Below the pieces are notes generated by a model that was given only the letters and a program-made list of their open reading frames with translations, was not told where the DNA came from and did not search any database. From a phage, in sequence record PZ445488.1: a stretch of 64,000 nucleotides of DNA. One strand, 5' to 3'. Shown piece after piece: positions 8,846 to 61,292 of this stretch. Each line of letters starts with the position of its first letter. The first letter of the stretch is position 1. Both the position numbers and the translations under genes were made by a program.

Positions 8846-8857
8846 ATTTTTCTCTCA

Positions 8858-9150: not shown

Positions 9151-10251
9151 TTACGCTGTGAAGATTTTATCCCACATCGCAACAACTGCATCTCGGTTAT
9201 ACTTCTTCCATACTGCTTCAGCACGTTTAACTCGAGCTTCGTATGTGTCAGTGAATTCTAATACAGCTTTTGCGTAAAGCGCAACTACTTCTTTCTTAGG
9301 AGTAGAGGAATCAATTTCTACACGCACAGTATCTGGGTCATATTCGAATGTCGCGTGCGGATAATCCTTAAAAACTAACTGAATTACAGGGACACCTTTA
9401 GAGATGGCTTCAATAGAACTATTCTCTACCGTACCCGTGTCAGGACACGTATTGATAAGTGCTTTAGCTGTTTTAAGACGTTCCATGATTTCACTGTGTG
9501 GAGCATCAATAATAACAGGATACTTAGCCGGTGGTGCCCATTTACTAGGACAGTATCCTACACCATTTTCGCCTAGTGCTTTAATCGCTTCAAGAGCAAC
9601 ATCAGTACGACGCATTTTAGTGTCATAACGTTGTGCACTAATAATCAGATCAGTCGCCGGAAGAACTTCAGGTTTATCATTCAAACAAATAACCGGATAA
9701 TCTTCGGCTTCAAACAACGGATTTGCTCGCCAATAATCATAATCAATTTTGTCAGTCAGACCTGAAGTCATATAACAATATTTGCGTTCAAATTCACGGA
9801 AGGCTTTAGTAGGAGCATAACTCTTACCACCGTTCTTATGAATTTGAATAGTCTGGTCCCAAATTTGAACAATGCCACGAGATACCGGTTCAAATGGTGT
9901 TGCCATAAAATTCTTATGAACTTTAGAGAGACCCGCGTCTTTAATTGCCTGAACGGTTAGTTTGGTCGGTTCCATAGTAACAACAAAATCGTATTCATGG
10001 ATGCCGGCTAGTTCAACAATCTTACGAGCCATAGTATAACTCATACCTAGACTGAATTTAGTCAGATGACCAACAGGATGATGATTAACCTTCCAATCAC
10101 CAAATGTGTCATTATCAAAGCCGATATAATCAATATCAGCACCGATAGAAACTAAATATTTCAACACATTTAAATGTACTGCTTCAAGACCACCTTGTAC
10201 ACGTTCTGGGTTAAATGGGACTGCGCGAGATGGGATAAACATAACTTTCAT
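9151..10251 (-). CDS. GT-B fold glycosyltransferase (GT4-like)
   Basis: 366 aa; C-terminal ENSSIEAISKGVPVI fits the GT4 E-x7-E / G-x-P-V-I donor-binding motif; N-terminal MKVMFIPS...GGLE Rossmann start. Confidence 0.6.
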   Translation of the reverse strand: MKVMFIPSRAVPFNPERVQGGLEAVHLNVLKYLVSIGADIDYIGFDNDTFGDWKVNHHPVGHLTKFSLGMSYTMARKIVELAGIHEYDFVVTMEPTKLTVQAIKDAGLSKVHKNFMATPFEPVSRGIVQIWDQTIQIHKNGGKSYAPTKAFREFERKYCYMTSGLTDKIDYDYWRANPLFEAEDYPVICLNDKPEVLPATDLIISAQRYDTKMRRTDVALEAIKALGENGVGYCPSKWAPPAKYPVIIDAPHSEIMERLKTAKALINTCPDTGTVENSSIEAISKGVPVIQLVFKDYPHATFEYDPDTVRVEIDSSTPKKEVVALYAKAVLEFTDTYEARVKRAEAVWKKYNRDAVVAMWDKIFTA

Positions 10252-10260
10252 AATTAAGCC

Positions 10261-10294
10261 TTATTAAAATTAAAATGAAGCTCCCGAAGGAGCT
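10261..10294 (-). terminator. stem-loop terminator downstream of the topoisomerase gene
   Basis: agctcc-cgaa-ggagct hairpin (10279-10294) then U-rich UCAUUUUAAUUUU on the minus-strand RNA. Confidence 0.45.
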
Positions 10295-12129
10295 TAGGAC
10301 ATCCATTCTTTACGAAGTTCTGAATCATCACCCAACAACATTTCAAAGAGTTCTTTCCAATTTTCAGGAAGTTTAACTACGTCGTACACAGGGTTCTGAA
10401 TCATTTCACGATACTCTGACTTTTCAAGGGAGCCCAATCCCTTGATGTATCGAATACTATGCTTAGGCAGCGTATCTTTAACTTCTTCATACTCAGCTAC
10501 AGTATAAAACCATTTTTGAGTTTTGCCAATTTGTGCAATAATTACAGGTGTTTTAACAAAGCGAATACGTCCTTGTTCAAACAATTCAGGCCAATTACTA
10601 AAGAAAGCAAGCAAAGCAGGATAAATACTTCCAAGGCCGTCATGATCGGCATCGGTCATAATTGCAATATTACGATAGTTCGTATTCTCTGCCTTTTCAC
10701 CAAGAATAAGACCTGTGATAGCACAGATATCAAAGAGCTCTTTGTTCTTCATCATATCAGCATATGACATACCCCAGCTATTCATCACCTTACCACGTAA
10801 TGGGAATCCGCCGTGTAGTTCACGGTCACGAACATCAATGAGATAACCAATTGCCGAATCACCTTCTGTTAAGAACAATGTCGTATCTGCATCTTTACCA
10901 CATTGGTTAGCTTTAATATGCTTATGAACCTTAGCTTTAGTTGCCTTTTTAGCTGCTTTAGTTTCTGCGGCCTTTTCTGCTGCCAATTTACGAGCTAATG
11001 CTGCTTCAATTATAGGCATTAAAACTGCTTCAGAATTCAAAATATTTTTTGCCAATTTTTTGGTATCTAATTTAATATGCGTCCGAATTTCGCCATAAGG
11101 ACTTGTTAAACGCTCTTTGGTTTGGGAATCAAAACGAAGGTTCTTCATTCCACGAACGAACATTAAGAGAGTGAGACATTCCTTGATGCGCGCTTTAGTC
11201 ACGTCGATTTTATATTTGCGTTTAATAGCCGGAATTAATTCTTCGCAAATGTCGTCCATCACACATTCAATGTGATGACCGCCATTTTTGGTATGGATGT
11301 TATTAACATAAGTTAAATGACGGAAGCCATCTGGTGACCGACCAATGGCAATAGAGCATCCATCTTGTTCTTGAATGACGGTCTCTTCATCAAATTGTTT
11401 AGCAAACTTCTTAAAGTTACCTTTAATCCTTTTGCCATTAAATTTAAATTCAATACCAGGATAAACGACTGCCAATGTTTGGAGCCGGTCTATAGTAATA
11501 TCTTGGTATATTTTTTCAAATTGATTCATTTCAAAATGAGAGAAATCAGGAATAAACTCGACCTTAGTCCCGTTGTTTTTAGACGGCTTAGATTTCCAAG
11601 AAATATTATCAGCATTATTAGAACAATTAACTGTCAATTCGTTTTTACCATCTGAAGTAGTGCCAACAAAAGAGACAGAAAAAATATTTGTTAATGAAGA
11701 ACCGACACCGTTTTGTCCACCCGTAACACGTTCTTTGTCGTCACCAAAGTTGCCACCAGCTTTTGTACGTGTCCACGCCGCAACTGGTCCTGGAATTTCT
11801 TCTCCTTCAGGAGTAATAACTGTTTCTTGAGGAATACCTCGTCCATTATCTTCAACAGTCACTTTATTAGAATTTAAATCAATACTAACAGAAATTTTAT
11901 TAGCATATTTGAAATTGGTTCGAATAGCTTCATCTACCGAGTTGTCAATAATTTCATCAATTAATTTGAGAACACCTGCAACATATTTAACCTTTTTAAA
12001 TTCACCGAATAGGAAACGTTCTTGTTCTTCATTGGCAACACTTCCAATATACATGCCAGGACGCTTCAAACAATGCTCTTTATCAGATAGCATTTCAATT
12101 TTATTATCAATCATTAGATTTTCTCTCAA
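10294..12129 (-). CDS. 39: DNA topoisomerase II large subunit, GyrB-like ATPase + Toprim (single fused 39/60-type gene)
   Basis: 611 aa continuous ORF with GyrB-like ATPase N-terminus; in T4 this function is split into genes 39 and 60. Confidence 0.85.
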   Translation of the reverse strand: MRENLMIDNKIEMLSDKEHCLKRPGMYIGSVANEEQERFLFGEFKKVKYVAGVLKLIDEIIDNSVDEAIRTNFKYANKISVSIDLNSNKVTVEDNGRGIPQETVITPEGEEIPGPVAAWTRTKAGGNFGDDKERVTGGQNGVGSSLTNIFSVSFVGTTSDGKNELTVNCSNNADNISWKSKPSKNNGTKVEFIPDFSHFEMNQFEKIYQDITIDRLQTLAVVYPGIEFKFNGKRIKGNFKKFAKQFDEETVIQEQDGCSIAIGRSPDGFRHLTYVNNIHTKNGGHHIECVMDDICEELIPAIKRKYKIDVTKARIKECLTLLMFVRGMKNLRFDSQTKERLTSPYGEIRTHIKLDTKKLAKNILNSEAVLMPIIEAALARKLAAEKAAETKAAKKATKAKVHKHIKANQCGKDADTTLFLTEGDSAIGYLIDVRDRELHGGFPLRGKVMNSWGMSYADMMKNKELFDICAITGLILGEKAENTNYRNIAIMTDADHDGLGSIYPALLAFFSNWPELFEQGRIRFVKTPVIIAQIGKTQKWFYTVAEYEEVKDTLPKHSIRYIKGLGSLEKSEYREMIQNPVYDVVKLPENWKELFEMLLGDDSELRKEWMS

Positions 12130-12790
12130 ATTGCATGACTATATTTTTGTATGAACCTTCCGGAAATCCACGTTTAACGCTTTCTTTAGCAAATTTACCG
12201 ACCTTTGGTTTATCCAATTCTAACCATAATTTATATAAAGAAGATTCATATTCCCATACAGGACTTTTACGATTTTTAAGCCCACACTTTATAAGCGCTT
12301 CCTTTGTATGTTTCTTATTATAAAATGGATTGTTTTTGCCACTCATTGCTTTAGAATGTTCAGGGCGCTTAATTCCATACATCGGATTAAGATCGCCTTT
12401 CTTGATAATTGATTGTAGTTCAATAGTTTCTTCAGAGTGATTGTGTCCATAAAATGGATTTAACTCTTTTGAAACATCCATACCAAAGCACCCATCGACT
12501 GTGGCATAAGACATGTTGAAAAATTTTTCAGATTTAACCACATTATGCAATTTCTGGTAATACAACTCACAAAACGTCGCTTCTTCACGTGTATCAAATT
12601 CGCCAATAATACATGAATCAAATAAATGAGGATTATCTTTTATCTCTTTATCATAAATTTGTTTATATTTTTTCGACTTTACCGTACCATGATAGTAACT
12701 GTTTGTATGTTTATCAAGATAAGTAGACCCTATATAAAACGGTGGCAACTTATCGCCTGTGTATATTGTTAAGTATGTTATGTATTTCAT
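12107..12790 (-). CDS. GIY-YIG homing endonuclease (Seg-like) with NUMOD3 repeats
   Basis: 227 aa; YITYLTIYTGDKLPPFYIGST...YHG GIY-YIG core plus three NPxYG..HSEET-type repeats; 3' end overlaps the first 23 nt of gene 39. Confidence 0.75.
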   Translation of the reverse strand: MKYITYLTIYTGDKLPPFYIGSTYLDKHTNSYYHGTVKSKKYKQIYDKEIKDNPHLFDSCIIGEFDTREEATFCELYYQKLHNVVKSEKFFNMSYATVDGCFGMDVSKELNPFYGHNHSEETIELQSIIKKGDLNPMYGIKRPEHSKAMSGKNNPFYNKKHTKEALIKCGLKNRKSPVWEYESSLYKLWLELDKPKVGKFAKESVKRGFPEGSYKNIVMQFERKSND

Positions 12791-22575: not shown

Positions 22576-23094
22576 TTAGTAACCATTATCCTGACGTTCA
22601 AAGTTGTGTTGGTTTTTCAAGTAGTAAAGTTTAAAGATTTCTTCAGCCGAAAGACCTAGACCTTGGAACATATTTAGAACGAAATGCAGAATATCAATCA
22701 TTTCAAATTTAATTTCAAGCTGGTCTTCAGGAGACAGTTCATCAATACGACGATTTCGATATTCAGCATGTTGTGCCTTCCACGGCTTCCATACACTGCT
22801 GGCGGCTTTTTCACCATTGCTCATACCACCAAGTGAAGTCAGCAGTTCACGGAATTCATCATCAATATAATCTTTCTGATTACGCAGCCAATCAACAACA
22901 TCACCAGCAGTGGCCAATTCATCAGGATGTTTGTTATGTTCAGGCTTGTCATTTGCCAGACGAACCTGTAAAGATTTTTGCATATCAAGCATTACCTGCA
23001 GTGGGTCTTTATCTTCGTGAATCAGAGCATTAAAATAAGCTTCTTCTGCTTTATCAACACCAGAAATAAGTTGTGAACATTCATTAAAGTGCGC
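22576..23094 (-). CDS. 56: dCTP pyrophosphatase (dCTPase/dUTPase)
   Basis: 172 aa from the second ATG (first ATG lies in the AAAGGAAA RBS); MAHFNEC...DPLQVMLDMQ...ELLTSLG...SPEDQLEIKFE...EEIFKLYYLKN matches recalled T4 gp56. Confidence 0.75.
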   Translation of the reverse strand, partial: AHFNECSQLISGVDKAEEAYFNALIHEDKDPLQVMLDMQKSLQVRLANDKPEHNKHPDELATAGDVVDWLRNQKDYIDDEFRELLTSLGGMSNGEKAASSVWKPWKAQHAEYRNRRIDELSPEDQLEIKFEMIDILHFVLNMFQGLGLSAEEIFKLYYLKNQHNFERQDNGY

Positions 23095-23185
23095 CATTAT
23101 TTTTCCTTTCAATTCAGTATAAGAGAGTTAATTCTAACATTAATTTTATAAAGCGTAATAAATAATAGGTAACCAAGGAGATATT

Positions 23186-30533: not shown

Positions 30534-31082
30534 TTAACGAGCCCATTTGATGATTTCTGTAATCAAACCATTACGTTCGCTTGCATTAAATCCTATAACT
30601 TTGTTAGCACCATCATGATTAAGTAATTGATATGTTTGGATTTTGTTATGAATTGCAAACTCTTCAAAATGTGAAATGACTGTATTAAAACCGAATGAAG
30701 ACAAAGTAATAAGGTCGTCTTCAAAACTTTCAGTCATTTCGTTACGTGTTAAAATAATTGTGAACACATCATGGTTTTGGCAAAGACGAACATAATCCTG
30801 CTCATAAACATCAAGAACAGAGTCCGCATCTTGACGAATACGTCCATAAACCCAGTTACTAATATATCCACGGTCTAACAGATAAATCTTAGTAGGGTCT
30901 AAATAATTCAACATCGTTTCGAAACAGCCAACTTCATTTCGAGACTTAACATCGAAACGTCCATCAACTGTTCGTTTAGGGAAATCAATCTTTACATATC
31001 TTTCACTAATTTCCATTATGTCATTAATGAAAGTTGTTTTACCGGCATTATCCGGGCCATCTACTAAAATAATTTTAGCCAT
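30534..31082 (-). CDS. P-loop nucleotide kinase, thymidylate-kinase-like
   Basis: 182 aa; Walker A DGPDNAGKTT and DRGYIS (DRY-type) motif; start overlaps stop of the upstream gene. Confidence 0.5.
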   Translation of the reverse strand: MAKIILVDGPDNAGKTTFINDIMEISERYVKIDFPKRTVDGRFDVKSRNEVGCFETMLNYLDPTKIYLLDRGYISNWVYGRIRQDADSVLDVYEQDYVRLCQNHDVFTIILTRNEMTESFEDDLITLSSFGFNTVISHFEEFAIHNKIQTYQLLNHDGANKVIGFNASERNGLITEIIKWAR

Positions 31083-31083
31083 T

Positions 31084-31983
31084 TTATTCCTCGATTACGA
31101 CATCTTCGTATTTAGGTATATTATACGGCGAAGAAATTAAAGCGTTAAAGTAGATGAACTCACCAAGACCTGGATGGAATACTTCTTCAGGATTTTCGAA
31201 ATATTGAATCTTCGGGCGTCCTTTAAGAATTTTATAGTACTCAGTTTTAGTTGGTTTAAAAATTCGAATCAGCGCTTCTTCAGGATACTTATTTCTGTCG
31301 AAGCTATTATTTGGATCGGTTATATAAAGCGGTTGGCCTAATTGAATTGCACATTCAACCACTTGTTCAAAACGATAGCACGGGTCACTAATTCGAAATG
31401 GATGAAAAATACCATCTAGATGAATAGGAGCCAAATCACCTACAAGACGCTGCATGATGGAAGGACGTATAACTTTCTGAGTTACGATAATCTTATTACC
31501 ATCTGCACCGGCGTTAACCAGCACTTCTTTTTGACGTTCATTCAACACAGTAGTTTGAAGTGAACGATTAACCGACAACATATCGGTTTTTAAGAATTCG
31601 TCAATATAAAAACGTGGTTTATTAGGGTCTGCCGTGATATTGAAATTGAATTCTACATCAAAAGCGCCGTCATATCCAGTGATATCTGTTATTAGAAAAT
31701 CACAATCATAATAAGCAATTAATGAATCAACCACAAATTCATTTTCAGACCAGAAATATTTACGAGTGTTATACGCGTTATCTTTATACCATAATGGAAC
31801 AAACTTAAATTCCGGGAAAAGACGTTCACATTCTTTAATATCAGATGCATTACGTGGATATGTAATCACATCACCTGGATTAGCACGGTGCAAATGAAGT
31901 TGGAAGTTGCCATCCTTAAGGATAGCATACTGTCCAGTTTCATAAGACCGCATACTCAAGATTGGTACGCGGAAAATAGCCAT
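31084..31983 (-). CDS. hypothetical protein (299 aa), candidate hmC sugar transferase
   Basis: Sits where T4 carries beta-gt; its ATG overlaps the stop of gene 42 (ATGA). No catalytic motif recognised; the functional call is by position only. Confidence 0.4.
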   Translation of the reverse strand: MAIFRVPILSMRSYETGQYAILKDGNFQLHLHRANPGDVITYPRNASDIKECERLFPEFKFVPLWYKDNAYNTRKYFWSENEFVVDSLIAYYDCDFLITDITGYDGAFDVEFNFNITADPNKPRFYIDEFLKTDMLSVNRSLQTTVLNERQKEVLVNAGADGNKIIVTQKVIRPSIMQRLVGDLAPIHLDGIFHPFRISDPCYRFEQVVECAIQLGQPLYITDPNNSFDRNKYPEEALIRIFKPTKTEYYKILKGRPKIQYFENPEEVFHPGLGEFIYFNALISSPYNIPKYEDVVIEE

Positions 31984-32699
31984 TAGTCAAGGAATCCTTT
32001 AACATAATCAAAATCACGTTCAAACACATGGGCACTTACCATGGTATGAGTATAATCACCAACTTCTACACCGCATTCGTTAGCGATATAATGAAGTAAT
32101 TTTCCTTGGAGATAAAAATCCAACTGCATAACAACAGCACAGTTCTGAGAACGCATATGACAGTGGGTATAAAGCTTACCATCACGAATATAATAAGTTA
32201 CTGAGTCAGTACATGGATATTCAAGTGTTTCGTCCGAATCAAGCAAAGCCTGATCAGAACTTTCTAGAATTTGGAACACAACTCTTCGAGAGTTAGGTTT
32301 TTCTTTAAGTTCTTTTAGAAGAGTTGGTAATTGGGCCGCAATGCGAGGACCATAGAAAGTGTTGAAGTTCGCCGGCAAAACATCTGATTTTGGTTTAGAA
32401 ATAAATTTAGCGACATTAGGATATGCCTTAAACGCTTCTTCTGCGTTGGTACCACCAGAAATCATAAACTTCCAGAAGTCTTCGGCATATTCATAAGAGA
32501 TGCGGTTAATACGTGGGTCGGTCATTTTGAATGATGATGGAGTGTCAACAACTACTGTCATAGACCCAATTTCATTACAACGTCCAATACGAGAATCAGT
32601 TACGAATTCCGGGTTTTCTAAAATTTCACGATTGACTGCTTTAAATGCGGTTTGAAAATCTGCGGCTTTGATATATTTCATTGTGTTATGTTTTCCCAT
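31983..32699 (-). CDS. 42: dCMP hydroxymethylase (thymidylate-synthase fold)
   Basis: 238 aa (T4 gp42 246 aa); NSRR and YPCTD motifs at the positions of the recalled T4 gp42 blocks; synteny. Confidence 0.8.
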   Translation of the reverse strand: MGKHNTMKYIKAADFQTAFKAVNREILENPEFVTDSRIGRCNEIGSMTVVVDTPSSFKMTDPRINRISYEYAEDFWKFMISGGTNAEEAFKAYPNVAKFISKPKSDVLPANFNTFYGPRIAAQLPTLLKELKEKPNSRRVVFQILESSDQALLDSDETLEYPCTDSVTYYIRDGKLYTHCHMRSQNCAVVMQLDFYLQGKLLHYIANECGVEVGDYTHTMVSAHVFERDFDYVKGFLD

Positions 32700-32741: not shown

Positions 32742-32981
32742 TTATTTGAATTTCTTGGCAATGTTGATATAACGTAAAGCTTCAGAATCTATACTTCCAA
32801 GAACACTATGAAGAAATGCATCAGCGTAGTATTCCAATTGAACAGGTTCTTTAATCACTTTAGCCGCTTTGGTTTCAAACAGGCCCATCAGGGCCTTTTT
32901 AAGAATTTGTTCGTTAGTGTTCAGTTTCATAGTCAAAATCTCTTCGTTAAGTTTATAATTAAAACTTTTTCTAGAAATCAT
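32742..32981 (-). CDS. hypothetical protein (79 aa)
   Basis: Track ORF overlapping the stop of the 386-aa gene. Confidence 0.4.
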   Translation of the reverse strand: MISRKSFNYKLNEEILTMKLNTNEQILKKALMGLFETKAAKVIKEPVQLEYYADAFLHSVLGSIDSEALRYINIAKKFK

Positions 32982-34138
32982 TCCGGGTACCTCAAAGCGT
33001 CATCAGAGCTAGTTATATCAATAATAGATATGGAGTTTTCTGCTAACCCGTTTTTAGATAATTGACGTTTATAATATCTTTCACAATATGTACACGTCGT
33101 CCCGCAGATTTCATTAGCACAATCGAAATCTGGATGTCTGAACCACCTTTTTTCTAAAAAGCCATCTAACAAAGAGGTTTCAATATTTACTGTATGTGAA
33201 AACTCAGTTTCGTTTTCAAGAGTGAAAATAGTCTCTAAAGGCTTCCACAGTTCTAACAAATTACCTTCAAACTTTTCAGAAGCGTATGCTTCAAGAACTT
33301 TCAAAATGTAGTCTGTGCTACCTGTACGTCCTGAAACTTTGAATTGAGTGATACCAATATCATTATAAAGTTTCAAATCTTGAGGACGAACAAAACGAGT
33401 TCTCAGCCAGTTAAATGGGTCTGTATCACGAGCTTTAATACAGTGTTGCATTGGATATCCATTTAAGGATTTAGCATCATCAGCGGTAACATCAGTACTA
33501 TGGAAAATATAGCAAGAGTCACGATAGCTACAATGTGTTGTATACCCTTTACCAGCATTAGAACAGAACTCATTTACAAGAACTTCAAATATTATATTGT
33601 TCTTATTGCAAAACTCTGCTGCACGCTTCAGGAAAGAAACTGAACGGTTCTTATGAATTCCGCAGCAGACCTTTTTGATATTATATTGGTCATGCAAGTA
33701 TTTGATTTGAGTTACAGCATCGACATGTAGAATTGTTGAAACTTCAATCTCAATATCTTTATTGACTTCACGAACAATTTCCATAACAACAGGGTTAGCG
33801 ATAGTAATACGCCATACGCCTATTGACCAAAGATACTGAACATAATCCTGAATAGCTTTCTTCTTCCACTCAACTAGTTCTCTTTTTGAACCAGGATTTA
33901 TCGTGTTGAGTGTATAGTTAAAGCAAATACCTAATTCGTTACAACGTTTAACGTAATCTTCTAACATCTTTTTGTCAACGTCAGGAAGCCTAAAATCAGG
34001 TCTGGCTGCTACAAAAGCCATTTCTCTTGTAGAGCCGTATACTTCGTTTATCAAGCTATTAGGATAAGTTTTATTGAGCTCTACGATTTTATCAAGAAGA
34101 GCTAAATCAAAATTCGTTCCGATTTTAAAAGTATTCAT
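32978..34138 (-). CDS. hypothetical Cys-rich protein (386 aa), possible Fe-S / U32-like enzyme
   Basis: Cys clusters EFCSNAGKGYTTHCSYRDSCYIFHS and C-terminal CANEICGTTCTYC (Cx4Cx3Cx2C); not the radical-SAM CxxxCxxC layout; fold unassigned. Confidence 0.4.
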   Translation of the reverse strand: MNTFKIGTNFDLALLDKIVELNKTYPNSLINEVYGSTREMAFVAARPDFRLPDVDKKMLEDYVKRCNELGICFNYTLNTINPGSKRELVEWKKKAIQDYVQYLWSIGVWRITIANPVVMEIVREVNKDIEIEVSTILHVDAVTQIKYLHDQYNIKKVCCGIHKNRSVSFLKRAAEFCNKNNIIFEVLVNEFCSNAGKGYTTHCSYRDSCYIFHSTDVTADDAKSLNGYPMQHCIKARDTDPFNWLRTRFVRPQDLKLYNDIGITQFKVSGRTGSTDYILKVLEAYASEKFEGNLLELWKPLETIFTLENETEFSHTVNIETSLLDGFLEKRWFRHPDFDCANEICGTTCTYCERYYKRQLSKNGLAENSISIIDITSSDDALRYPE

Positions 34139-34195: not shown

Positions 34196-34597
34196 TTATA
34201 GATTAGGTTTATATGATTTAAATGTTTCGAATTCGCCTTTATTCATAAGAGCTTTGAATTCGTCAGGACGCATAGCTTTGTCGTCGATAATCCAATCATA
34301 TACTGGTTTATGTGTTAGCAAATTATGGTACTTCAAGCCAATGTTTGCCAAGTTCTGAATCAGACTTGGGAGAATGTCAATTGCTATACGACCAGGACCT
34401 ACTGACTTCATACCACGAGCCGTGTAAAGCGTTATGGTATGCCCTGCATCATACAGGGCATTAATGGCAGACACCATTTCGACGTCTGGTTTGAAGTTCA
34501 CGTAATCACGATTGTTATTCCATTCCGTGATGCAATCATCGATATCAAAACAAAGATTAAGCATGTTTTCTACATGGTGCATTAGATTCGTTCCCAT
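34196..34597 (-). CDS. HAD-like phosphatase (small)
   Basis: Ordered motifs FDIDDCIT (I), ITLYTARG (II), THKP (III), DWIIDD (IV); likely starts at Met 34582, overlapping the upstream stop. Confidence 0.45.
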   Translation of the reverse strand: MGTNLMHHVENMLNLCFDIDDCITEWNNNRDYVNFKPDVEMVSAINALYDAGHTITLYTARGMKSVGPGRIAIDILPSLIQNLANIGLKYHNLLTHKPVYDWIIDDKAMRPDEFKALMNKGEFETFKSYKPNL

Positions 34598-36270
34598 TGA
34601 TGAGTGATATCGCCACCGATTGGACGATAGGAAACACCAGTTTCTTTATCAGTTAGTACCCATTTACCAGGATTTTTTGTAATCAGAGTAGCCGTTACAG
34701 GTTCTGCTACGTCATAACTAATAGAGCCGTCTTGAAGTACACGGCCCATGTTATGTAATTGCTTAGTCAGAAGTTCCATACCTTTATAATATGCGGCCAC
34801 CGCTTTAAGTGGATTATTCTTGAAATAACCACCTAATGCAATCCAGATAATTGCTACTGCCAAATGATGATACTCATTAAACGAACTCATCTTTCCATAT
34901 TTGTAAACTAATGGATTGATGTTAATAGTCACATTACAAGTTGTTTCATCAATAGTAAACTGACCCCAGGTCGGATTAGCATTGAATTCATCATAACCTG
35001 AAACAGCATAAAGCACTTTAGCTTCATCGTACAATTTTGGCCCGTAAATCTTGGTTTCACCAAAATATCCACGAGGGTCGATAAACTTGACTTCACCATT
35101 ATCAGTAATCATAGTATTACTGAAGTTCGGGTCGCCGTGAATAACAGAGTACTGTCCCTGAGAACGGTTATGATAACGAATAAGATGTTCTAAAGCTTGT
35201 TTCAACATTGGCTTCAGACGTCCAATCTTAGTGTAGTTCACGTGTGTGATTTTACCAAATGAATCAATCAATGGCTGAATGCTTTCACAACGATCAATAA
35301 CTTTCGTATAGAACTCTTTAGTGAAATCACGGCGAACAGTTTCAGGACTTACAAAATAAGTGTCTGTGCTGAATTTCAGTGCATCTAAAATTGCATCAAC
35401 AATTTGTGGACGAGCAAGACTTGATTTGGATTTAATATATTCAAATGCCGGCTTACCTTTAATGCGTTCCATAATAAAGTGGCCGCCAGGATGATAACTT
35501 ACAATCCGTGGAACTGAATCTGATTTAACTTTCTTATACCAATTGACTTCATCTTTTTGAAGTGCAACGCCCTGTTCTGTTAAAGCAATCTTTGTTACCG
35601 TTTCTTCGCCAATTTCAACTGCATTAAAACTACGATTAAGTTCACGAACTTCATGAGCTTTTTCAAGTTTAGGCATATCACCTAAATCAATTAGATTCAT
35701 AAGCTCTGATTTATTGAATGCACTACCGTAAAGGAATTCTACGAAATCACGTCCTTTGCAGTATTCGTGAATTTCCTCATCAGTAGAACCCATGTAGAAT
35801 TCCCAGTCTTTGAACTGATAAATTCCTACAACATTACCACCTGTTGAACCTACGTTAGTGATATTTTCACCATCGAAATTATATCGACATTCATCACCCT
35901 TAACATAGATTGCGTTAACATTCCAAGACCATGAACCAAAGTCAGGAATAATATCACACCAGTTAACAATTACGTTATGGCCATCTAAATCTTTGTATAA
36001 TTTAGCAAGAGCATAAGCAGAACCATACGCTTCATCAACTGTACGAATAGTCACATTGAACCCTTCTTGCTCGCAATAAGCTCGAACAGTTTCAGCAAAT
36101 TTTGAATGAACTACTACAATAATTTCATCTGCGCCAAGGTCAGAATAAATTGTATACAAATTGCTCAGAATAGTGTCTTGTTTATAGTTAACAAGCACCT
36201 TAGGAATATGGTGCGTTATTGGATACAAACGAGTTGCCAGTCCAGCACCAAGAATAACAGCTTTTTTCAT
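34582..36270 (-). CDS. bifunctional sugar-1-phosphate nucleotidyltransferase (RmlA/GlmU-like) + anomeric sugar kinase (APH/choline-kinase fold)
   Basis: 562 aa; N-terminus AVILGAGLATRLYPIT (G-x-G-T-R-L-x-P-x-T); C-terminal half has HGDPNFSN (Brenner HGDxxxxN) and FIDPRG (DFG-like). Confidence 0.7.
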   Translation of the reverse strand: MKKAVILGAGLATRLYPITHHIPKVLVNYKQDTILSNLYTIYSDLGADEIIVVVHSKFAETVRAYCEQEGFNVTIRTVDEAYGSAYALAKLYKDLDGHNVIVNWCDIIPDFGSWSWNVNAIYVKGDECRYNFDGENITNVGSTGGNVVGIYQFKDWEFYMGSTDEEIHEYCKGRDFVEFLYGSAFNKSELMNLIDLGDMPKLEKAHEVRELNRSFNAVEIGEETVTKIALTEQGVALQKDEVNWYKKVKSDSVPRIVSYHPGGHFIMERIKGKPAFEYIKSKSSLARPQIVDAILDALKFSTDTYFVSPETVRRDFTKEFYTKVIDRCESIQPLIDSFGKITHVNYTKIGRLKPMLKQALEHLIRYHNRSQGQYSVIHGDPNFSNTMITDNGEVKFIDPRGYFGETKIYGPKLYDEAKVLYAVSGYDEFNANPTWGQFTIDETTCNVTININPLVYKYGKMSSFNEYHHLAVAIIWIALGGYFKNNPLKAVAAYYKGMELLTKQLHNMGRVLQDGSISYDVAEPVTATLITKNPGKWVLTDKETGVSYRPIGGDITHQWERI

Positions 36271-36308: not shown

Positions 36309-36455
36309 ATTCTAGTTAAAGCATTCATACTTTGCTTGTAGTCCAATCATAATCCATCCGATTATAAGAGTCGGAATCATTACTGGAGCCGTTAAGCTCC
36401 AGTAGATAGTCATGACAAGCATCAATAGTAAAAGTCCTATTGTTATTGCTTTCAT
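36309..36455 (-). CDS. small membrane peptide (48 aa)
   Basis: Hand-translated MKAITIGLLLLMLVMTIYWSLTAPVMIPTLIIGWIM...; ATG overlaps the TGA of the isomerase gene. Confidence 0.3.
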
Positions 36456-37087
36456 TGTTCGCCTCGTAACATGGCACCTAGTGCACCACCAGGGTGGAAC
36501 TTAAGGAAGTCATTAGAGGTAAATCCGCGTTCAGACGAAAGGTTGATAGCGAACGTATCGATAAGCGCTAACAACAATGTAGTGGACATTGTAGGAGCCA
36601 GAGAATTCTCATCAACCTCTACCGCGATACCGGTACAGAATGTATAATCAAAAAGAGCTTCGTATTCTTGTGGAATGTCCGGGTTACAATGCAACAGAAT
36701 CTGTTTGACATTTGGACGAATCATTTTAAGATGCTTAGCCACGCCTATCATTTCTTCAGTCTTACCAGAACGACTAATATGAATCAACACATCATTAGGC
36801 GCAATGAATCCTGCATCACCGTGAGAATAATGCCCAGTGTTCAAGTACATACTCGGGATACCGAGCGAAGCAAATGTCTCAGAAGCTTTAGTTGCAATAT
36901 TAGCATTCTTACCAACACCTGTAATAATTACTCGGCTTTCATAATTACTAAGTCCAGGGCGTCGAAGAGTTTCTAGAATAGCATTATAACGAGCAGGGTT
37001 TTGACTAATTACTTTGGCCATAGCGGCCAAAGAAGAAGCTTGTTTTATGATTGCGTCAATAGCGATAGTAATAGGAGTAGTTTTCAT
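36452..37087 (-). CDS. SIS-domain sugar-phosphate isomerase, KdsD/GutQ-like arabinose-5-phosphate isomerase (no CBS domains)
   Basis: 211 aa; TGVGKNANIATKASETFASLGIPS...HGDAGF...ISRSGKTEE...LAPTMSTT...RGFT.NDF..HPGGALG aligns block-for-block with recalled E. coli KdsD SIS domain. Confidence 0.7.
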   Translation of the reverse strand: MKTTPITIAIDAIIKQASSLAAMAKVISQNPARYNAILETLRRPGLSNYESRVIITGVGKNANIATKASETFASLGIPSMYLNTGHYSHGDAGFIAPNDVLIHISRSGKTEEMIGVAKHLKMIRPNVKQILLHCNPDIPQEYEALFDYTFCTGIAVEVDENSLAPTMSTTLLLALIDTFAINLSSERGFTSNDFLKFHPGGALGAMLRGEQ

Positions 37088-45235: not shown

Positions 45236-45464
45236 TACACGCTTCAGCCATTTTAAGAATAGAGCCAGGAGTATCGTTGTCCATTATATTAAAGCTAAAT
45301 TCAATAGCCCAGTCGGTACAGACATGAACGGCTTTAACTTCATTGCCTTCAACGCGTAATGGCTCAATCCAATACTTGATAGTGTTCTCGAATCCATCAT
45401 CATCTTTAACGTCTATTTCAACTTCAAGCCCGAGCCCAGCATTGTTAAATTCATCTAAAGTCAT
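45207..45464 (-). CDS. hypothetical protein (85 aa)
   Basis: Track ORF between 47 and 46. Confidence 0.4.
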   Translation of the reverse strand: MTLDEFNNAGLGLEVEIDVKDDDGFENTIKYWIEPLRVEGNEVKAVHVCTDWAIEFSFNIMDNDTPGSILKMAEACIEDAYNDED

Positions 45465-46480
45465 TGTGTTGCCTCAATATAAAGTTCGTTGGAATATTTG
45501 ACCAGCGCTTCTCTGTCTTCGTCTGAGATATCTGGAATCGCGTCAATATATTCTTTAATGATATCTTGAAGTGATTTAATCTCGATTTCCTGGTCGTCAT
45601 CAGATTCAACACTGTTATCAACTTTAGAAACCATACGAAGAGAGTGAACTACTTTTTCAAGTTCAGATTCAAACTTAGTCAACTCTGAATCAATTTCTGA
45701 TACTATAACACGTACGGCTAGATTAGTATAATCAGAATAATTAATTTTGCCTTTAAACGGATAAGTGATTCGTCGATGCCATGTTGTTTCATTAGGAATA
45801 AATTCCATACGTTCAACATCAGTGTCAAATACCCAGAATCCGCGCGGATCGTTCTCATCACCTGCAGTAAGGGTCCATGGTGTCCCAATATATTTGACGT
45901 TAGCAGCTTCAGAGATTGTGTGGAAGTGGCCAGACCAGACTTGTTTATAGGTCTTTAAGAAATCAGGTTCAAGCCCATGAGACTTCATTCCTTTATAGAA
46001 ATAAAAACCGTTCAGTTCCCAGTGACCAACACAATACGCAGCAGAAGAAGTCTTGATGTGCTCTAAGATTTCACCTGTATTTTCTTCACACATCCACGGA
46101 ACGATATCGATCAGACATCCGTCAAAATCTACAGTAGTTGGATGTTCGTAAATAGTAAAGTTTTCAAATTGAGTTAACAATTCAGAAACAGTGTTAGGTG
46201 TTATTGTATTCTTAAACGCCATGTCATGGTTTCCTATCGTGACATGAACGTGAATGCCTGCCTTAGAAATCATATCAACGATTTCACGATTGAATTCCAT
46301 TGTACGATGTGTTATTGCTTTACGGACGTCGAACCAATCACCGTACTGAATCCAAGTTTTAATCCCGTGTTTCTTAGAGTATTCAATTGCTTGACGAATA
46401 CCATCGCGTTGAATATCTTGAACCCATGGGTCGTCTTGTTTGACTCCAATATGGAAGTCGCCTAAGTGCAAAATTTTCAT
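45461..46480 (-). CDS. 47: recombination endonuclease subunit (SbcD/Mre11-like phosphoesterase)
   Basis: 339 aa (T4 gp47 339 aa); N-terminal MKILHLGDFH metallophosphatase motif. Confidence 0.85.
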   Translation of the reverse strand: MKILHLGDFHIGVKQDDPWVQDIQRDGIRQAIEYSKKHGIKTWIQYGDWFDVRKAITHRTMEFNREIVDMISKAGIHVHVTIGNHDMAFKNTITPNTVSELLTQFENFTIYEHPTTVDFDGCLIDIVPWMCEENTGEILEHIKTSSAAYCVGHWELNGFYFYKGMKSHGLEPDFLKTYKQVWSGHFHTISEAANVKYIGTPWTLTAGDENDPRGFWVFDTDVERMEFIPNETTWHRRITYPFKGKINYSDYTNLAVRVIVSEIDSELTKFESELEKVVHSLRMVSKVDNSVESDDDQEIEIKSLQDIIKEYIDAIPDISDEDREALVKYSNELYIEATQ

Positions 46481-46497
46481 ATTATTTCCTCATTAGT

Positions 46498-46530
46498 TAA
46501 TTCATTCTATCATCCGTTTATAAAGCAAAA
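46498..46530 (-). promoter_or_regulatory. putative MotA-dependent middle promoter for 47/46
   Basis: Minus strand TGCTTTA - 12 nt - TAGAAT, 22 nt upstream of the gene 47 ATG with GAGGAAA RBS. Confidence 0.5.
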
Positions 46531-46550
46531 AAGGAACTCCGAAGAGTTCC
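46519..46550 (-). terminator. intrinsic terminator
   Basis: Minus-strand RNA AGGAACUC-UUCG-GAGUUCCU followed by UUUUUUGCUUU. Confidence 0.6.
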
Positions 46551-46762
46551 TATCCACATAGTACACCATACAGAGGCTCATTTGAACTTTTAAATCGAAT
46601 GGGCTTGTATGTAATAGTTCCTTCGGCTTTAGCTTTATCATAAGACTCTTTAAAACGTCTCATTCTTTCTGCTTTGCCTTTACGGATTTTATCGAAATTT
46701 TCAGAAGTCGGGATGTTCGTCATGCATAATCACCTCTCAGAAAATACCTAAATCGATTTCTC

Positions 46763-46984
46763 TCATCGTTTCCACCATTTCTTAACTTGAAATGAATCAA
46801 CCCACACGAGTTGTTTTGGGTCTGCCTTTACAATAGGCGGACAAATTTCTGTAATAGAACCGTCGTGATATTCCTTTTCAGAAATTTTAACACAAAGAGG
46901 ACCTCCCAATTTAAGGGTGAACCCTGCATTCAGCTTCAGACGTTTAAACTTTGTTTGAACTAGCGCCATTAATGATGTCCTCAA
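46763..46984 (-). CDS. hypothetical protein (73 aa)
   Basis: Track ORF in the interval where T4 carries alpha-gt. Confidence 0.4.
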   Translation of the reverse strand: MRTSLMALVQTKFKRLKLNAGFTLKLGGPLCVKISEKEYHDGSITEICPPIVKADPKQLVWVDSFQVKKWWKR

Positions 46985-47267
46985 TAGCCTGACGAGTAGT
47001 AACCCACTGGATTTTAATTAACTTGTCATTATATGGTTGTCGTAGAATATCCCGAGATTTCTTAATAGCATATTCGTAAGCTTCGAAGTTGTTTTGAATT
47101 GCTGCTTCTTGAGCATGAGCATAAAGACGGTTTAGTTCAAAACGATTCTTTTTAAGAATCTTTTCGGATTTTTTACGTGCTTCAGCTTCATTTTTCTTTT
47201 GGATTTCTTGTAGCATTTTAGCTACTGCATCTTCTGCTTCTTTATTTTCAATAATCTCGGTAGTCAT
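46944..47267 (-). CDS. hypothetical protein (107 aa)
   Basis: Track ORF, operon strand. Confidence 0.4.
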   Translation of the reverse strand: MTTEIIENKEAEDAVAKMLQEIQKKNEAEARKKSEKILKKNRFELNRLYAHAQEAAIQNNFEAYEYAIKKSRDILRQPYNDKLIKIQWVTTRQAIEDIINGASSNKV

Positions 47268-47268
47268 A

Positions 47269-47478
47269 TTATCTCATTAAATTAAAATAAAAACGTCCAT
47301 CCTCTTCAATACAGAACTCATACTCAACCGGAGTCCCATTTATCGAAAATGACACGTCATGTGGGTTCAAAGGGTCGATGTCAAAATTAATTTTAAATTC
47401 ACGACCCAACAGTTTTACCAAATAAGGGATTGCTTCGTCAAAAGGTTCTTCTAAGTAGTTAGAGATGTCAATTGTCAT
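47269..47478 (-). CDS. hypothetical protein (about 69 aa)
   Basis: Track ORF 47269-47562 trimmed to an internal Met to limit overlap with gene 55. Confidence 0.35.
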
Positions 47479-48025
47479 CCTCATATAAAAAATCCAAACT
47501 AGGCGAATCGCTAACAACTTCCTTCTTTTCAGCCCCAGGAGCTTTATAAGCGGATTCTTCATAATGCGTCATTTTATCGTAGATGTCTTGAATAAACGTT
47601 TCATCTACCAACGCTACCATATCATCGTCATGACTGTCGTAGACATTATGAACGAAGTAACTATATTTCTTTGCAACTTCCTTACGTTCTTTTTTGATAC
47701 GTTGGACAAAAGCATTAAAACAAGCTCGAGTTATGTATGCATGTGGGTTATTGTACTTAGTTTCGTCGAAATTATGAAGTCCCTTAATAGAGGCTTCAAT
47801 CCCATCTGCAATCATCTCCTGCTTCCAAGACTGGGTATATCCTGAAAAGTTGAAACGTTTGGACAGGCCTTCGGCAATAAGCATAATTGCTAAACCGATG
47901 GTATCATTCTGACGAATAATTTTGTTTGGGTCTTTATTATTTAAGAGCTCCTTTTTCCACTCGATTATAGCGGCGAGAAGCTCTTTATTATTCACATAGT
48001 TATTTTTAGGTTTTTGTTCAGTCAT
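47468..48025 (-). CDS. 55: late-transcription sigma factor
   Basis: 185 aa from [17 protein letters not shown]...; [59 protein letters not shown] matches recalled T4 gp55. Confidence 0.85.
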
Positions 48026-60290: not shown

Positions 60291-61292
60291 TTATTTCAGT
60301 AAAGTTACTTCAGAGATTTCCTCCCAACCATCTTTATCAGTTGAAATAAAATCTGCTACATAAAGAGCCGTACGTAATGATACATTGCGAAGACGAGATA
60401 CGTTAGCCTTCATCCAGGACAATGCTTTGTACGTTTCAGCATCAGTCAAGCCACGTTTCTGCATCATGTCAGTAGATAATATTACATCTTCAACTCGAAC
60501 CATAATCTCTTCATTAGAGTGTACTCCAAGGTCCAAATACACTGAACGAGATACTAAAGCTTGAAGGTGTGGAGCAAGTTTCGAACCGCGTTCTAACTCT
60601 TTATCAATATCAACGTTTGTAATGAAAACGATAGTACCTTCAAACTCAAATTCTTTATCGATACCCTTATCCTCGAGATAAGATGACGCAGTGCTCCAAC
60701 AAACTTTGCGTTTATCTCCGGTATCTAATGCTGCTTTAAGAAGGTTCAGGATGTCCATATCTGAGAATACGTCAACGTCATCGATTAAGAGAACGCTGTC
60801 TTCATCACGGTTGAGCCAAAGTTGTTCGTAAAGGCCAATACCGGAGATTTTACCATTAATGCTTTTGTATTTGATGAAACCATTATCATTAGCATTATTA
60901 AGTGCTTTATCCAGAGAATACGTCTTACCAATACCAGCTGCACCTGAAATAATGAGTGAACGAATTTTGCCATCAATAATGCCATTCGTCATCATGTTCA
61001 TTACTTTAAAGCGTTTGTTGATACGAGTTTTCATATCTTCAGTGCTTTCAACAACTGCAACTGGTGACGTCTCAACTCCTTCCATTACGATGTCTGATTT
61101 GAAGACCCATACTCCACGTTCAGAACCATCAATCATAACGAAAATTTTACCGTCACCTAAGTGGGAACATTCAGGATTAAGCTTTGCCGGGAACCATGTC
61201 TTTGTGGCAACATAAGAACCAGAGATTTCGTTATTACGATAGATACCTTTTTTGATTTGAACGTTGAACATTTTATTCTCCAATTTACTCAT
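60291..61292 (-). CDS. P-loop NTPase (AAA-like) of unknown function (333 aa)
   Basis: Walker A SGAAGIGKTY and Walker B VLLIDDVD after a roughly 110-aa N-terminal domain. Confidence 0.5.
   Translation of the reverse strand: MSKLENKMFNVQIKKGIYRNNEISGSYVATKTWFPAKLNPECSHLGDGKIFVMIDGSERGVWVFKSDIVMEGVETSPVAVVESTEDMKTRINKRFKVMNMMTNGIIDGKIRSLIISGAAGIGKTYSLDKALNNANDNGFIKYKSINGKISGIGLYEQLWLNRDEDSVLLIDDVDVFSDMDILNLLKAALDTGDKRKVCWSTASSYLEDKGIDKEFEFEGTIVFITNVDIDKELERGSKLAPHLQALVSRSVYLDLGVHSNEEIMVRVEDVILSTDMMQKRGLTDAETYKALSWMKANVSRLRNVSLRTALYVADFISTDKDGWEEISEVTLLK

What the first reader, a model, noticed from the sequence alone, without database searches (positions are those of the whole stretch)
46481..47467. 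No alpha-/beta-glucosyltransferase genes at their T4 positions despite intact hmC machinery
gp42 and gp56 are present, so cytosine is presumably replaced by hmC. The 47-55 interval (alpha-gt in T4) holds only three small ORFs, and the beta-gt slot holds an unrelated 299-aa protein. This is what one expects for a non-glucose hmC modification.
Basis: partly seen in the sequence, partly recalled or inferred. Interest (0 to 1): 0.55.

Follow-up and report, generated by a model that had tools for sequence, protein, structure and literature searches.

The report
RB69-type phage: arabinose replaces glucose
This T4-like phage really does lack both glucosyltransferase genes, but that is the already published hallmark of RB69-type phages, which replace cytosine with 5-hydroxycytosine (not hydroxymethylcytosine) and decorate it with arabinose using genes that sit in this same window.

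Summary
The window is a Mosigvirus (RB69-like T-even phage). It is 100% identical to two partial phage CEV1 records and about 96% identical to RB69. Between gene 47 and gene 55 there are only homologues of T4 a-gt.2 to a-gt.5; T4's 47.1, a-gt and mobB are absent. No Agt or Bgt homologue exists in the window or in the complete RB69 genome.

- The "gp42" is 25% identical to T4 gp42 but 99% identical to RB69 gp48. RB69 gp48 is an experimentally shown FMN/O2-dependent 5-hydroxy-dCMP synthase, and the window protein carries its diagnostic Asp169->Asn change. The hmC machinery is therefore not intact; it has been replaced.
- The "unrelated 299-aa protein" in the beta-gt slot is a GT-B-fold glycosyltransferase. 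It corresponds to RB69 gp46:47, the proposed first DNA arabinosyltransferase.
- The second arabinosyltransferase and the UDP-arabinose genes are also in the window.

All of this was published between 2018 and 2026, so the finding is already known.

One side lead may be new. A very conserved U32-family protein lies inside the cluster. In 51 related phage records a chorismate mutase gene lies in this cluster, directly beside the U32 gene wherever the locus was read. This suggests a prephenate-dependent, oxygen-independent route to 5-hydroxycytosine.

The parts
46481..46549 (.). 69-bp spacer between the start of gene 47 and the stop of the a-gt.2 homologue. This is where T4 carries 47.1, a-gt and mobB (about 2.3 kb).
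   Evidence: No tblastn hit for T4 47.1 or Agt (mobB was not queried; no ORF of its size lies in the interval).
46550..46723 (-). a-gt.2 homologue, 57 aa (DUF5486).
   Evidence: 76% identity to T4 a-gt.2. Pfam E=4.5e-28.
46763..46969 (-). a-gt.3 homologue, 68 aa from the ATG.
   Evidence: 71% identity to T4 a-gt.3. Annotated at the same place in p000v and RB69.
46944..47267 (-). a-gt.4 homologue, 107 aa (DUF2654).
   Evidence: 58% identity to T4 a-gt.4. Pfam E=1e-27.
47269..47484 (-). a-gt.5 homologue, 71 aa (DUF5491). It overlaps the 3' end of gene 55 by 17 nt.
   Evidence: 47% identity to T4 a-gt.5. Pfam E=1.4e-12.
45461..46480 (-). Gene 47 (SbcD-like nuclease subunit), left landmark of the interval.
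47468..48025 (-). Gene 55 (late sigma factor), right landmark of the interval.
31983..32699 (-). ThyA-family 5-hydroxy-dCMP synthase at the gene-42 position, 238 aa. It is not a hydroxymethylase.
   Evidence: 99% identical to RB69 gp48. Near-identical to PDB 9iqc/9ir2/9iqu. 25% identical to T4 gp42. Cys163, Asn186 (ThyA Asp169->Asn) and Asp194 (ThyA Asn177->Asp). Activity shown for RB69 gp48 in PMC13326640.
31084..31983 (-). 299-aa GT-B glycosyltransferase in the beta-gt slot; proposed first DNA arabinosyltransferase.
30534..31082 (-). 182-aa thymidylate-kinase-like nucleotide kinase (RB69 gp45 homologue); role unproven.
   Evidence: PHROG thymidylate kinase E=5.7e-45. Table 1 of PMC13326640.
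32742..32981 (-). 79-aa ORF (RB69 ORF049c homologue). It sits in the slot where related phages carry a chorismate mutase, but it is not recognisably one.
32978..34138 (-). 386-aa U32-family protein (RB69 gp50 homologue), function unknown. Proposed here to be an O2-independent hydroxylase.
   Evidence: Pfam Peptidase_U32 E=7.3e-11, 42.2 bits. All 222 phage homologues are at least 80% identical. Ten invariant Cys.
34196..34582 (-). 128-aa HAD-type sugar phosphatase (RB69 gp51 / HY126 AfhF analogue).
   Evidence: NCBIfam TIGR01689 E=3.3e-13. PMC13326640 section 27.
34582..36270 (-). 562-aa bifunctional sugar-1-phosphate nucleotidyltransferase and kinase (RB69 gp52:53 / HY126 AfhE analogue). It makes UDP-arabinofuranose.
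   Evidence: Pfam NTP_transferase at residues 3-99 and kinase-like hits at 238-410.. PMC13326640 section 27.
36452..37087 (-). 211-aa arabinose-5-phosphate isomerase (RB69 gp55 homologue).
   Evidence: Pfam SIS E=1.7e-10. NCBIfam KpsF/GutQ E=2.2e-32 and KdsD E=1.2e-30.
9151..10251 (-). 366-aa second DNA arabinosyltransferase (RB69 ORF003c homologue), between rIIA and gene 39.
   Evidence: 99% identical to RB69 ORF003c. E=1e-248 to PDB 9iqz/9ir0, 'phage HY126 glycosyltransferase'.
22576..23097 (-). gp56 dCTPase. It supplies dCMP and keeps dCTP out of phage DNA.
   Evidence: 72% identical to T4 gp56, E=1e-82..

Best explanation
The window comes from an RB69-type T-even phage (genus Mosigvirus, probably phage CEV1). 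Its DNA carries arabinosylated 5-hydroxycytosine instead of glucosylated hydroxymethylcytosine. Agt and Bgt are absent because their substrate, hmC, is never made.

Proposed pathway:
1. gp56 turns dCTP into dCMP.
2. The ThyA-like enzyme at the gene-42 position hydroxylates dCMP at C5, using FMN and O2.
3. The dNMP kinase gp1 (outside the window) and host kinases make 5-hydroxy-dCTP, and the phage polymerase incorporates it.
4. UDP-arabinofuranose is made from ribulose-5-phosphate by the isomerase (36452-37087), the kinase/uridylyltransferase (34582-36270) and the HAD phosphatase (34196-34582).
5. The 299-aa GT-B enzyme in the former beta-gt slot adds the first arabinose. The 366-aa enzyme next to rIIA adds the second.

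Shown experimentally in close relatives: the DNA chemistry (RB69, NP), the 5-hydroxy-dCMP synthase activity (RB69 gp48, HY126) and the UDP-arabinose steps (HY126).

Inferred: that this phage behaves identically, the order of action of the two transferases, and whether the first transfer happens on DNA or on the nucleotide.
For: - Identity of the phage: 100% to CEV1 fragments; 95.6% to RB69 across the window in the same gene order; p000v taxonomy is Mosigvirus.
- Absence of Agt/Bgt in the window and in the whole RB69 genome.
- In the phage collection, Agt homologues (657 records) fall into identity bands of 89% or more, about 66%, or below 60%. In the sampled rows the first two bands are T4-type coliphages and Klebsiella phages; no RB69-type phage appears there. 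Bgt homologues occur in only 126 records.
- Gene-42 homologue: 99% identical to RB69 gp48, 25% to T4 gp42, with the Asp169->Asn signature.
- 299-aa protein: same gene as RB69 gp46:47, with a confident GT-B model.
- 366-aa protein: 99% identical to RB69 ORF003c and near-identical to the solved HY126 glycosyltransferase.
- Sugar-nucleotide genes are recognised by Pfam, NCBIfam and PHROGs.
- Chemistry and enzymology come from PMC13326640 and PMC13390438. The original report of missing glucosyltransferases and of arabinose is PMC6024577.
Against: - No chemistry exists for this exact phage, and about 105 kb of its genome lies outside the window and was not seen.
- The first arabinosyl transfer has not been demonstrated in the papers I could read. 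Single transferases were inactive on 5hoC-DNA (PMC13326640). The Thanatos homologue of the 299-aa protein was reported to form UDP-xylose from UTP and xylose-1-phosphate rather than to transfer sugar to DNA (PMC12838424).
- The roles of the 182-aa kinase, the 79-aa ORF and the U32 protein are unexplained by this scheme.
Confidence: 0.93

Rival explanations
1. The phage makes hmC with an intact gp42/gp56 pair, as T4 does, and attaches a sugar other than glucose to the hydroxymethyl group. This is the arabinosyl-hmC model of 2018.
For: A ThyA-family gene sits at the gene-42 position and gp56 is conserved. Thomas et al. 2018 (PMC6024577) proposed exactly this for RB69.
Against: The gene-42 homologue is 25% identical to T4 gp42, while neighbouring genes are 47-76% identical. 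It carries Asp169->Asn and is 99% identical to RB69 gp48, which produced 5-hydroxy-dC with 18O from O2 in vivo. Two later papers state that the hydroxymethyl assignment was wrong.
Confidence: 0.03
2. Glucosyltransferases are present but lie elsewhere in this phage's genome or are too diverged to recognise. In that case the DNA is glucosylated after all.
For: Only 64 kb of roughly 170 kb is visible. The 299-aa and 366-aa proteins are GT-B enzymes whose sugar specificity cannot be read from sequence.
Against: The whole RB69 genome has no Agt/Bgt homologue. All RB69-specific ORFs outside the window-equivalent region are under about 100 aa. The window encodes a complete arabinose-5-phosphate to UDP-arabinose route. 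Relatives contain arabinose, not glucose.
Confidence: 0.02
3. The pathway is as in the best explanation, but the first arabinose is added to the nucleotide (5-hydroxy-dCMP) before replication. The adjacent thymidylate-kinase-like protein would then phosphorylate the bulky product. This would be unlike T4, where sugars are added to DNA.
For: A dedicated kinase gene is conserved next to the 299-aa gene in RB69, DLP3, RL38J1, LC53 and Thanatos. Single transferases did not act on 5hoC-DNA, and the authors say they cannot tell where the first transfer occurs.
Against: RB69 gp1 dNMP kinase already converts 5-hydroxy-dCMP to the diphosphate. Nothing shows that a polymerase accepts an arabinosylated dNTP. 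This is pure inference from gene adjacency.
Confidence: 0.15

Closest known systems
Escherichia phage RB69 arabinosyl-5-hydroxycytosine system (gp3, gp28, gp45-gp55). Sources: Thomas et al. 2018, PMC6024577; Lee et al. 2026, PMC13326640; also Mahler et al. 2025 and He et al., both known to me only as cited in PMC13326640.
   Same: Same genes in the same order at 96% nucleotide identity. The synthase and the second transferase are 99% identical in protein; the 299-aa gene is 99% identical at the DNA level. The 47-55 interval holds the same a-gt.2 to a-gt.5 genes, already annotated that way in the RB69 record.
   Different: The window has intact 299-aa and 562-aa ORFs where the RB69 reference record splits each in two. 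For the 299-aa gene the cause is one extra T; the paper calls both splits sequencing errors. The window also has an extra 227-aa endonuclease-like ORF beside gene 39.
T4 glucosyl-hmC system (gp42 dCMP hydroxymethylase, gp56, alpha-GT, beta-GT).
   Same: Same overall logic and the same chromosomal slots. A dCTPase and a ThyA-family enzyme make a C5-oxygenated dCMP, and GT-B enzymes then attach sugars. The flanking genes are conserved (47, a-gt.2 to a-gt.5, 55, uvsX, 43).
   Different: The base is 5-hydroxy-C made with flavin and O2, not hydroxymethyl-C made with folate. The sugar is arabinofuranose from a phage-made UDP-Araf, not host UDP-glucose. There are no Agt/Bgt homologues. The genes 47.1, a-gt and mobB are absent. 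The 42-43 interval holds sugar genes instead of imm and imm.1.
Prephenate-dependent U32-family hydroxylases: RlhA (ho5C2501 of 23S rRNA), TrhP (ho5U34 of tRNA) and UbiU/UbiV. This comparison applies to the side lead only.
   Same: Pfam Peptidase_U32 domain above the gathering score. The paired Cys of the U32 signature are retained. A chorismate mutase, which makes prephenate, lies next to the gene in related phages. The chemistry required, C5 hydroxylation of a pyrimidine, is the same.
   Different: Very distant in sequence: hhalign to UbiU gives probability 4%. It has an extra C-terminal Cys-x4-Cys-x3-Cys-x2-Cys module. It occurs in viral nucleotide-metabolism neighbourhoods. No activity is known.

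Membership tests
T4 alpha-glucosyltransferase (Agt) | Recognisable sequence homology to T4 Agt. | tested here: not met
   tblastn gives no hit at E<=1 in the window. In the whole RB69 genome there are only two short alignments (E=0.013 and 0.042), at the positions annotated nrdC.10 and e.5.
T4 alpha-glucosyltransferase (Agt) | A gene located between 47 and a-gt.2. | tested here: not met
   Only a 69-bp spacer lies there.
T4 beta-glucosyltransferase (Bgt) | Recognisable sequence homology to T4 Bgt. | tested here: not met
   No tblastn hit in the window or the RB69 genome. The 126 phage records with Bgt homologues show no RB69-type phage among the rows listed.
T4 beta-glucosyltransferase (Bgt) | The occupant of the slot downstream of gene 42 has the Bgt fold. 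| tested here: inconclusive
T4 gp42 dCMP hydroxymethylase | ThyA fold with the catalytic Cys, and Asn177->Asp for dCMP specificity. | tested here: met
   Pfam Thymidylat_synt E=1.9e-15. Cys163 and Asp194 are present.
T4 gp42 dCMP hydroxymethylase | Asp169 (ThyA numbering) retained, and close similarity to T4 gp42. | tested here: not met
   Asn186 stands in place of Asp. Identity to T4 gp42 is only 25%.
Viral 5-hydroxy-dCMP synthase (RB69 gp48 / HY126 type) | Asp169->Asn signature plus near-identity to an enzyme of proven activity. | tested here: met
   99% identical to RB69 gp48. E=2.9e-160 to PDB 9iqc. The signature is defined in PMC13326640 section 28.
Viral 5-hydroxy-dCMP synthase (RB69 gp48 / HY126 type) | FMN- and O2-dependent formation of 5-hydroxy-dCMP. 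| not testable with these tools
   Shown for RB69 gp48 and the HY126 enzyme, not for this protein.
Mosigvirus arabinosyl-5-hydroxycytosine system | The full gene set: dCTPase, synthase, two GT-B transferases, arabinose-5-phosphate isomerase, kinase/uridylyltransferase and HAD phosphatase. | tested here: met
   All are found in the window in RB69 order.
Mosigvirus arabinosyl-5-hydroxycytosine system | Virion DNA contains mono- and di-arabinosyl-5-hydroxy-dC. | not testable with these tools
   Measured in RB69 and NP. NP is 97.7% identical to the region tested.
U32 prephenate-dependent hydroxylases (side lead) | U32 domain with Fe-S-ligand cysteines. | tested here: inconclusive
   The Pfam hit is above threshold. 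Ten Cys are invariant, and two of them align with the UbiU signature Cys at a spacing of 5 rather than 6. The profile comparison with UbiU is weak.
U32 prephenate-dependent hydroxylases (side lead) | Link to a prephenate supply. | tested here: inconclusive
   A chorismate mutase lies in the cluster in 51 related phage records and overlaps the U32 stop in the three loci read. In Thanatos-1 the pair stays together after rearrangement. In this window the 79-aa ORF in that slot is not a chorismate mutase.

The most novel reading that the evidence does not exclude
The 386-aa U32-family protein inside the arabinosylation cluster (32978-34138) may be a prephenate-dependent, oxygen-independent C5-hydroxylase of cytosine, acting on dCMP or on DNA. 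It would let these gut phages make 5-hydroxycytosine when the O2/FMN-dependent ThyA-like synthase cannot work. Relatives carry their own chorismate mutase beside it to supply prephenate. This phage would rely on the host enzymes. None of the papers I could read on this system mention this idea.
Probability: 0.3. Interest if true: 0.7.

Novelty: already known. Interest (0 to 1): 0.15.

Why it matters
The given finding re-derives from raw sequence a fact already in the literature: RB69-type phages lack glucosyltransferases and arabinosylate their cytosines. Its practical value is a caution for annotation. A 'gene 42 homologue' does not mean hmC, because one residue (Asp169->Asn) separates hydroxymethylase from hydroxylase. 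Many GenBank records still label this gene 'dCMP hydroxymethylase', and label the transferase 'hypothetical'.

The side lead could matter more. If the U32 protein is an anaerobic cytosine hydroxylase, it would explain how an O2-requiring DNA modification is sustained by phages in the anoxic gut. It would also extend prephenate-dependent hydroxylation from RNA and quinones to DNA precursors.

Tried and rejected
- A word-size-2 tblastn gave T4 Agt a hit at E=0.006 in window ORF 60291-61292. Rejected: that ORF has only sub-threshold P-loop NTPase hits in Pfam, and its RB69 counterpart is annotated nrdC.10, a gene T4 also has.
- The RB69 Agt hit at E=0.042 falls at the position of the gene annotated e.5, which the RB69 record marks as having a T4 counterpart, so it is not an Agt replacement.
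- I tested whether the 79-aa ORF 32742-32981 is a diverged chorismate mutase. It has no Pfam or NCBIfam hit even at E<=10, no BLAST similarity, and aligns at only 17% identity with the three phage chorismate mutases. Rejected as a recognisable chorismate mutase.
- I tried to anchor the U32 protein to E. coli UbiU by profile comparison. The result was weak (probability 4%), so no specific assignment within the U32 family is claimed.
- I expected the 50-58% identical U32 homologues to be bacterial. The two contexts examined look viral, with nucleotide-metabolism genes around them. They say nothing about a cellular function.
- Searches for the Mahler 2025 and He et al. papers in the library failed. 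Their content is known only through citations.
- Loci L002, L005 and L006 never reached the scripting machine. T4 proteins were therefore pasted in by hand, and two RB69 segments were fetched again.
Full report
WHAT THE WINDOW IS

A 6-kb stretch around the finding is 100% identical to a partial record of Escherichia phage CEV1. It is 96.8-98.5% identical to the other listed RB69-type phages, and at least 147 records cover it almost fully at high identity. One of these, p000v, is classified as Mosigvirus. A second CEV1 fragment matches the 299-aa protein at 100%.

The whole window aligns to RB69 positions 161267-167560 followed by 1-57646, at 95.6% identity and in the same gene order. All genes discussed here are on the minus strand.

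THE OBSERVATION

Gene 47 occupies 45461-46480 and gene 55 occupies 47468-48025. The finding's coordinates are therefore exactly the 47-55 interval.

T4 carries 47.1, a-gt, mobB and a-gt.2 to a-gt.5 in this interval. The window has homologues of the last four only:
- a-gt.2 at 46550-46723, 76% identity;
- a-gt.3 at 46763-46969, 71% identity;
- a-gt.4 at 46944-47267, 58% identity;
- a-gt.5 at 47269-47484, 47% identity.

A 69-bp spacer stands where T4 has about 2.3 kb. There are four, and the fourth overlaps gene 55 by 17 nt.

tblastn with T4 Agt and Bgt finds nothing at E<=1 in the window. I rebuilt the complete RB69 genome from four fetched segments. Bgt has no hit in it. Agt has only two short alignments, at E=0.013 and 0.042. 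They lie at the positions of the genes annotated nrdC.10 and e.5. The window's nrdC.10 counterpart has only P-loop NTPase hits, and the RB69 record marks both genes as having T4 counterparts.

In the RB69 record, every RB69-specific ORF outside the window-equivalent region is under about 100 aa. Across the phage collection:
- Agt homologues occur in 657 records. They fall in bands of 89% identity or more, about 66%, or below 60%; the sampled rows in the first two bands are T4-type coliphages and Klebsiella phages.
- Bgt homologues occur in 126 records.
- No RB69-type phage appears in the rows listed for either search.

The absence is real. It was tested on a 96% relative, not on the unseen two-thirds of this phage's own genome.

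THE PREMISES

gp56 is present at 22576-23097 and is 72% identical to T4 gp56.

The "gp42" at 31983-32699 is a ThyA-family protein but only 25% identical to T4 gp42, whereas its neighbours are 47-76% identical. It is 99% identical to RB69 gp48. It is nearly identical to three 2025-era PDB entries, which are probably the HY126 enzyme.

Lee et al. 2026 (PMC13326640) showed that RB69 gp48 makes 5-hydroxy-dCMP, takes 18O from O2 and carries a flavin. They also showed that Asp169->Asn (E. coli ThyA numbering) marks this activity. The window protein reads MRSQNCAVVMQLD. This places Asn186 at ThyA position 169 and Asp194 at position 177, with the catalytic Cys at 163. T4 gp42 has Asp171 and Asp179 at the same two positions. 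The enzyme is therefore a hydroxylase, not a hydroxymethylase.

THE 299-AA PROTEIN

ORF 31084-31983 is the same gene as RB69 ORF046c plus ORF047c. The RB69 record has one extra T that splits it, which the 2026 paper calls a sequencing error.

It has no Pfam, NCBIfam or PDB sequence match. Homologues occur in T4-like phages of Edwardsiella, Yersinia, Acinetobacter, Serratia and other hosts.

- T4 beta-GT, not in the top 60.

So the beta-gt slot holds a different DNA-sugar transferase, not an irrelevant gene.

THE REST OF THE SYSTEM IS IN THE WINDOW

- The second transferase is at 9151-10251. It is 99% identical to RB69 ORF003c, and E=1e-248 to the solved HY126 glycosyltransferase.
- An arabinose-5-phosphate isomerase is at 36452-37087.
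- A bifunctional nucleotidyltransferase/kinase is at 34582-36270.
- A HAD phosphatase is at 34196-34582.
- A thymidylate-kinase-like protein is at 30534-31082.

These genes fill the 42-43 interval, which in T4 holds imm and imm.1.

The published pathway runs from ribulose-5-phosphate to arabinose-5-phosphate, then arabinose-1,5-bisphosphate, then arabinose-1-phosphate, then UDP-arabinofuranose. Transfer to 5-hydroxycytosine follows. RB69 and phage NP contain mono- and di-arabinosylated 5-hydroxy-dC. NP is hit H6, at 97.7% identity.

CAVEATS ON MECHANISM

The first transfer step is inferred, not shown, in the papers I could read. Single transferases were inactive on 5hoC-DNA, and the authors could not say whether the first sugar goes onto DNA or onto the nucleotide. 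A paper on phage Thanatos reports that its homologue of the 299-aa protein formed UDP-xylose in vitro. A kinase gene is conserved next to the transferase, which keeps a nucleotide-level first step open as a minority possibility.

VERDICT ON THE FINDING

The sugar is indeed not glucose, but the base is not hmC. All of it is already published: Thomas 2018, Mahler 2025, He et al., Lee 2026 and the Durham collection paper of 2026. The RB69 GenBank record already annotates the a-gt.2 to a-gt.5 interval without a-gt. Novelty is 'already known' and interest is low.

SIDE LEAD: THE U32 PROTEIN

The 386-aa protein at 32978-34138 has a Peptidase_U32 domain. The 2026 paper labels it only 'sugar or heterocycle reductase' and never mentions U32.

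The U32 family contains the oxygen-independent, prephenate-dependent hydroxylases RlhA (5-hydroxycytidine in 23S rRNA), TrhP (5-hydroxyuridine in tRNA) and UbiU/UbiV.

Evidence gathered here:
- The phage protein is unusually conserved. All 222 phage homologues are at least 80% identical, and the named hosts are Enterobacterales or Shewanella. The adjacent transferase, by contrast, falls to 45% identity.
- The transferase also occurs in 57 Acinetobacter phage records, a host genus absent from the listed U32 hits. The counts also imply that some E. coli phages with the transferase lack the U32 gene; their genus was not checked.
- In Enterobacter phage Entb_45 the gene overlapping the U32 stop is a genuine type II chorismate mutase (Pfam CM_2, E=2.4e-10). 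Chorismate mutase is the enzyme that makes prephenate.
- That mutase has homologues in 51 phage records. These include Serratia phages LC53 and 92A1, which PMC13326640 lists as containing arabinosylated 5-hydroxy-dC, and Shewanella phage Thanatos.
- In LC53 the order is U32, mutase, ThyA homologue. In Thanatos-1 the cluster is rearranged, yet U32 and the mutase stay as an overlapping pair.
- Ten cysteines are invariant across 40 homologues. Two of them align with the U32 signature Cys pair of UbiU. A C-terminal Cys-x4-Cys-x3-Cys-x2-Cys block is also invariant.
- More distant homologues (50-55% identity) sit in virus-like contigs next to thymidylate kinase, dCMP deaminase, a 5'-nucleotidase and a deoxynucleoside kinase.

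Evidence against:
- The profile match to UbiU is weak.
- This window's own 79-aa ORF in the mutase slot is not a chorismate mutase.
- No experiment exists.
- Two key papers could not be read.

I rate the hypothesis of an anaerobic route to 5-hydroxycytosine at about 0.3.

Noticed in passing
window 32978-34138 (U32) and 32742-32981 (79-aa ORF); L009 5989-7397; L013 3718-5228; L014 3850-5240: A highly conserved U32-family protein lies inside the arabinosylation cluster. A type II chorismate mutase has homologues in 51 related phage records and directly follows, overlapping, the U32 gene in the three loci read. The pair stays together even where the cluster is rearranged. This suggests a prephenate-dependent, O2-independent hydroxylase. 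In this window the ORF in the mutase slot is unrelated to chorismate mutase.
   Followed up: partly
window 30534-31082: A thymidylate-kinase-like gene is conserved directly downstream of the 299-aa transferase in RB69, LC53, Thanatos, DLP3 and RL38J1, although gp1 dNMP kinase already phosphorylates 5-hydroxy-dCMP. It might serve a nucleotide-level arabinosylation step.
   Followed up: no
window 12107-12790: A 227-aa ORF lies in a stretch of about 820 bp that is absent from RB69 (window 11967-12789). It overlaps the 5' end of gene 39 and has weak similarity to group I intron (GIY-YIG) endonucleases (NCBIfam E=2.7e-4). It is probably a homing endonuclease insertion.
   Followed up: partly
window 31084-31983 and 34582-36270; L003 24597-25497 and 28094-29780: The RB69 reference record splits two genes of the pathway (ORF046c/047c and ORF052c/053c) that are single intact ORFs here. 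For the first, the cause is one extra T in RB69. Many GenBank records still call the 238-aa gene 'dCMP hydroxymethylase' and the 128-aa HAD phosphatase 'phosphoheptose isomerase'.
   Followed up: partly
window 6632-11967: This stretch (rIIA, rIIA.1, second transferase, gene 39) is only 90.2% identical to RB69, against about 96% for the rest of the window. Yet the transferase protein itself is 99% identical, so the divergence must lie in rIIA and/or gene 39.
   Followed up: no
L010 and L011 (metagenomic contigs): Homologues of the phage U32 protein at 50-55% identity sit in a 466-kb and an 86-kb virus-like contig among nucleotide-metabolism genes. In L010 these are thymidylate kinase, UDG and dCMP deaminase; in L011 NT5C, a deoxynucleoside kinase, nucleoside deoxyribosyltransferase, a radical SAM protein and a second U32-like protein. 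No ThyA homologue lies within 7 kb.
   Followed up: no
PMC12838424 versus PMC13326640 (homologues of window 31084-31983): The literature conflicts on this protein family. The Thanatos homologue TH1_063 is reported as a UDP-xylose pyrophosphorylase in vitro. The RB69 and DLP3 homologues are proposed as the first DNA arabinosyltransferase, but without demonstrated activity.
   Followed up: no
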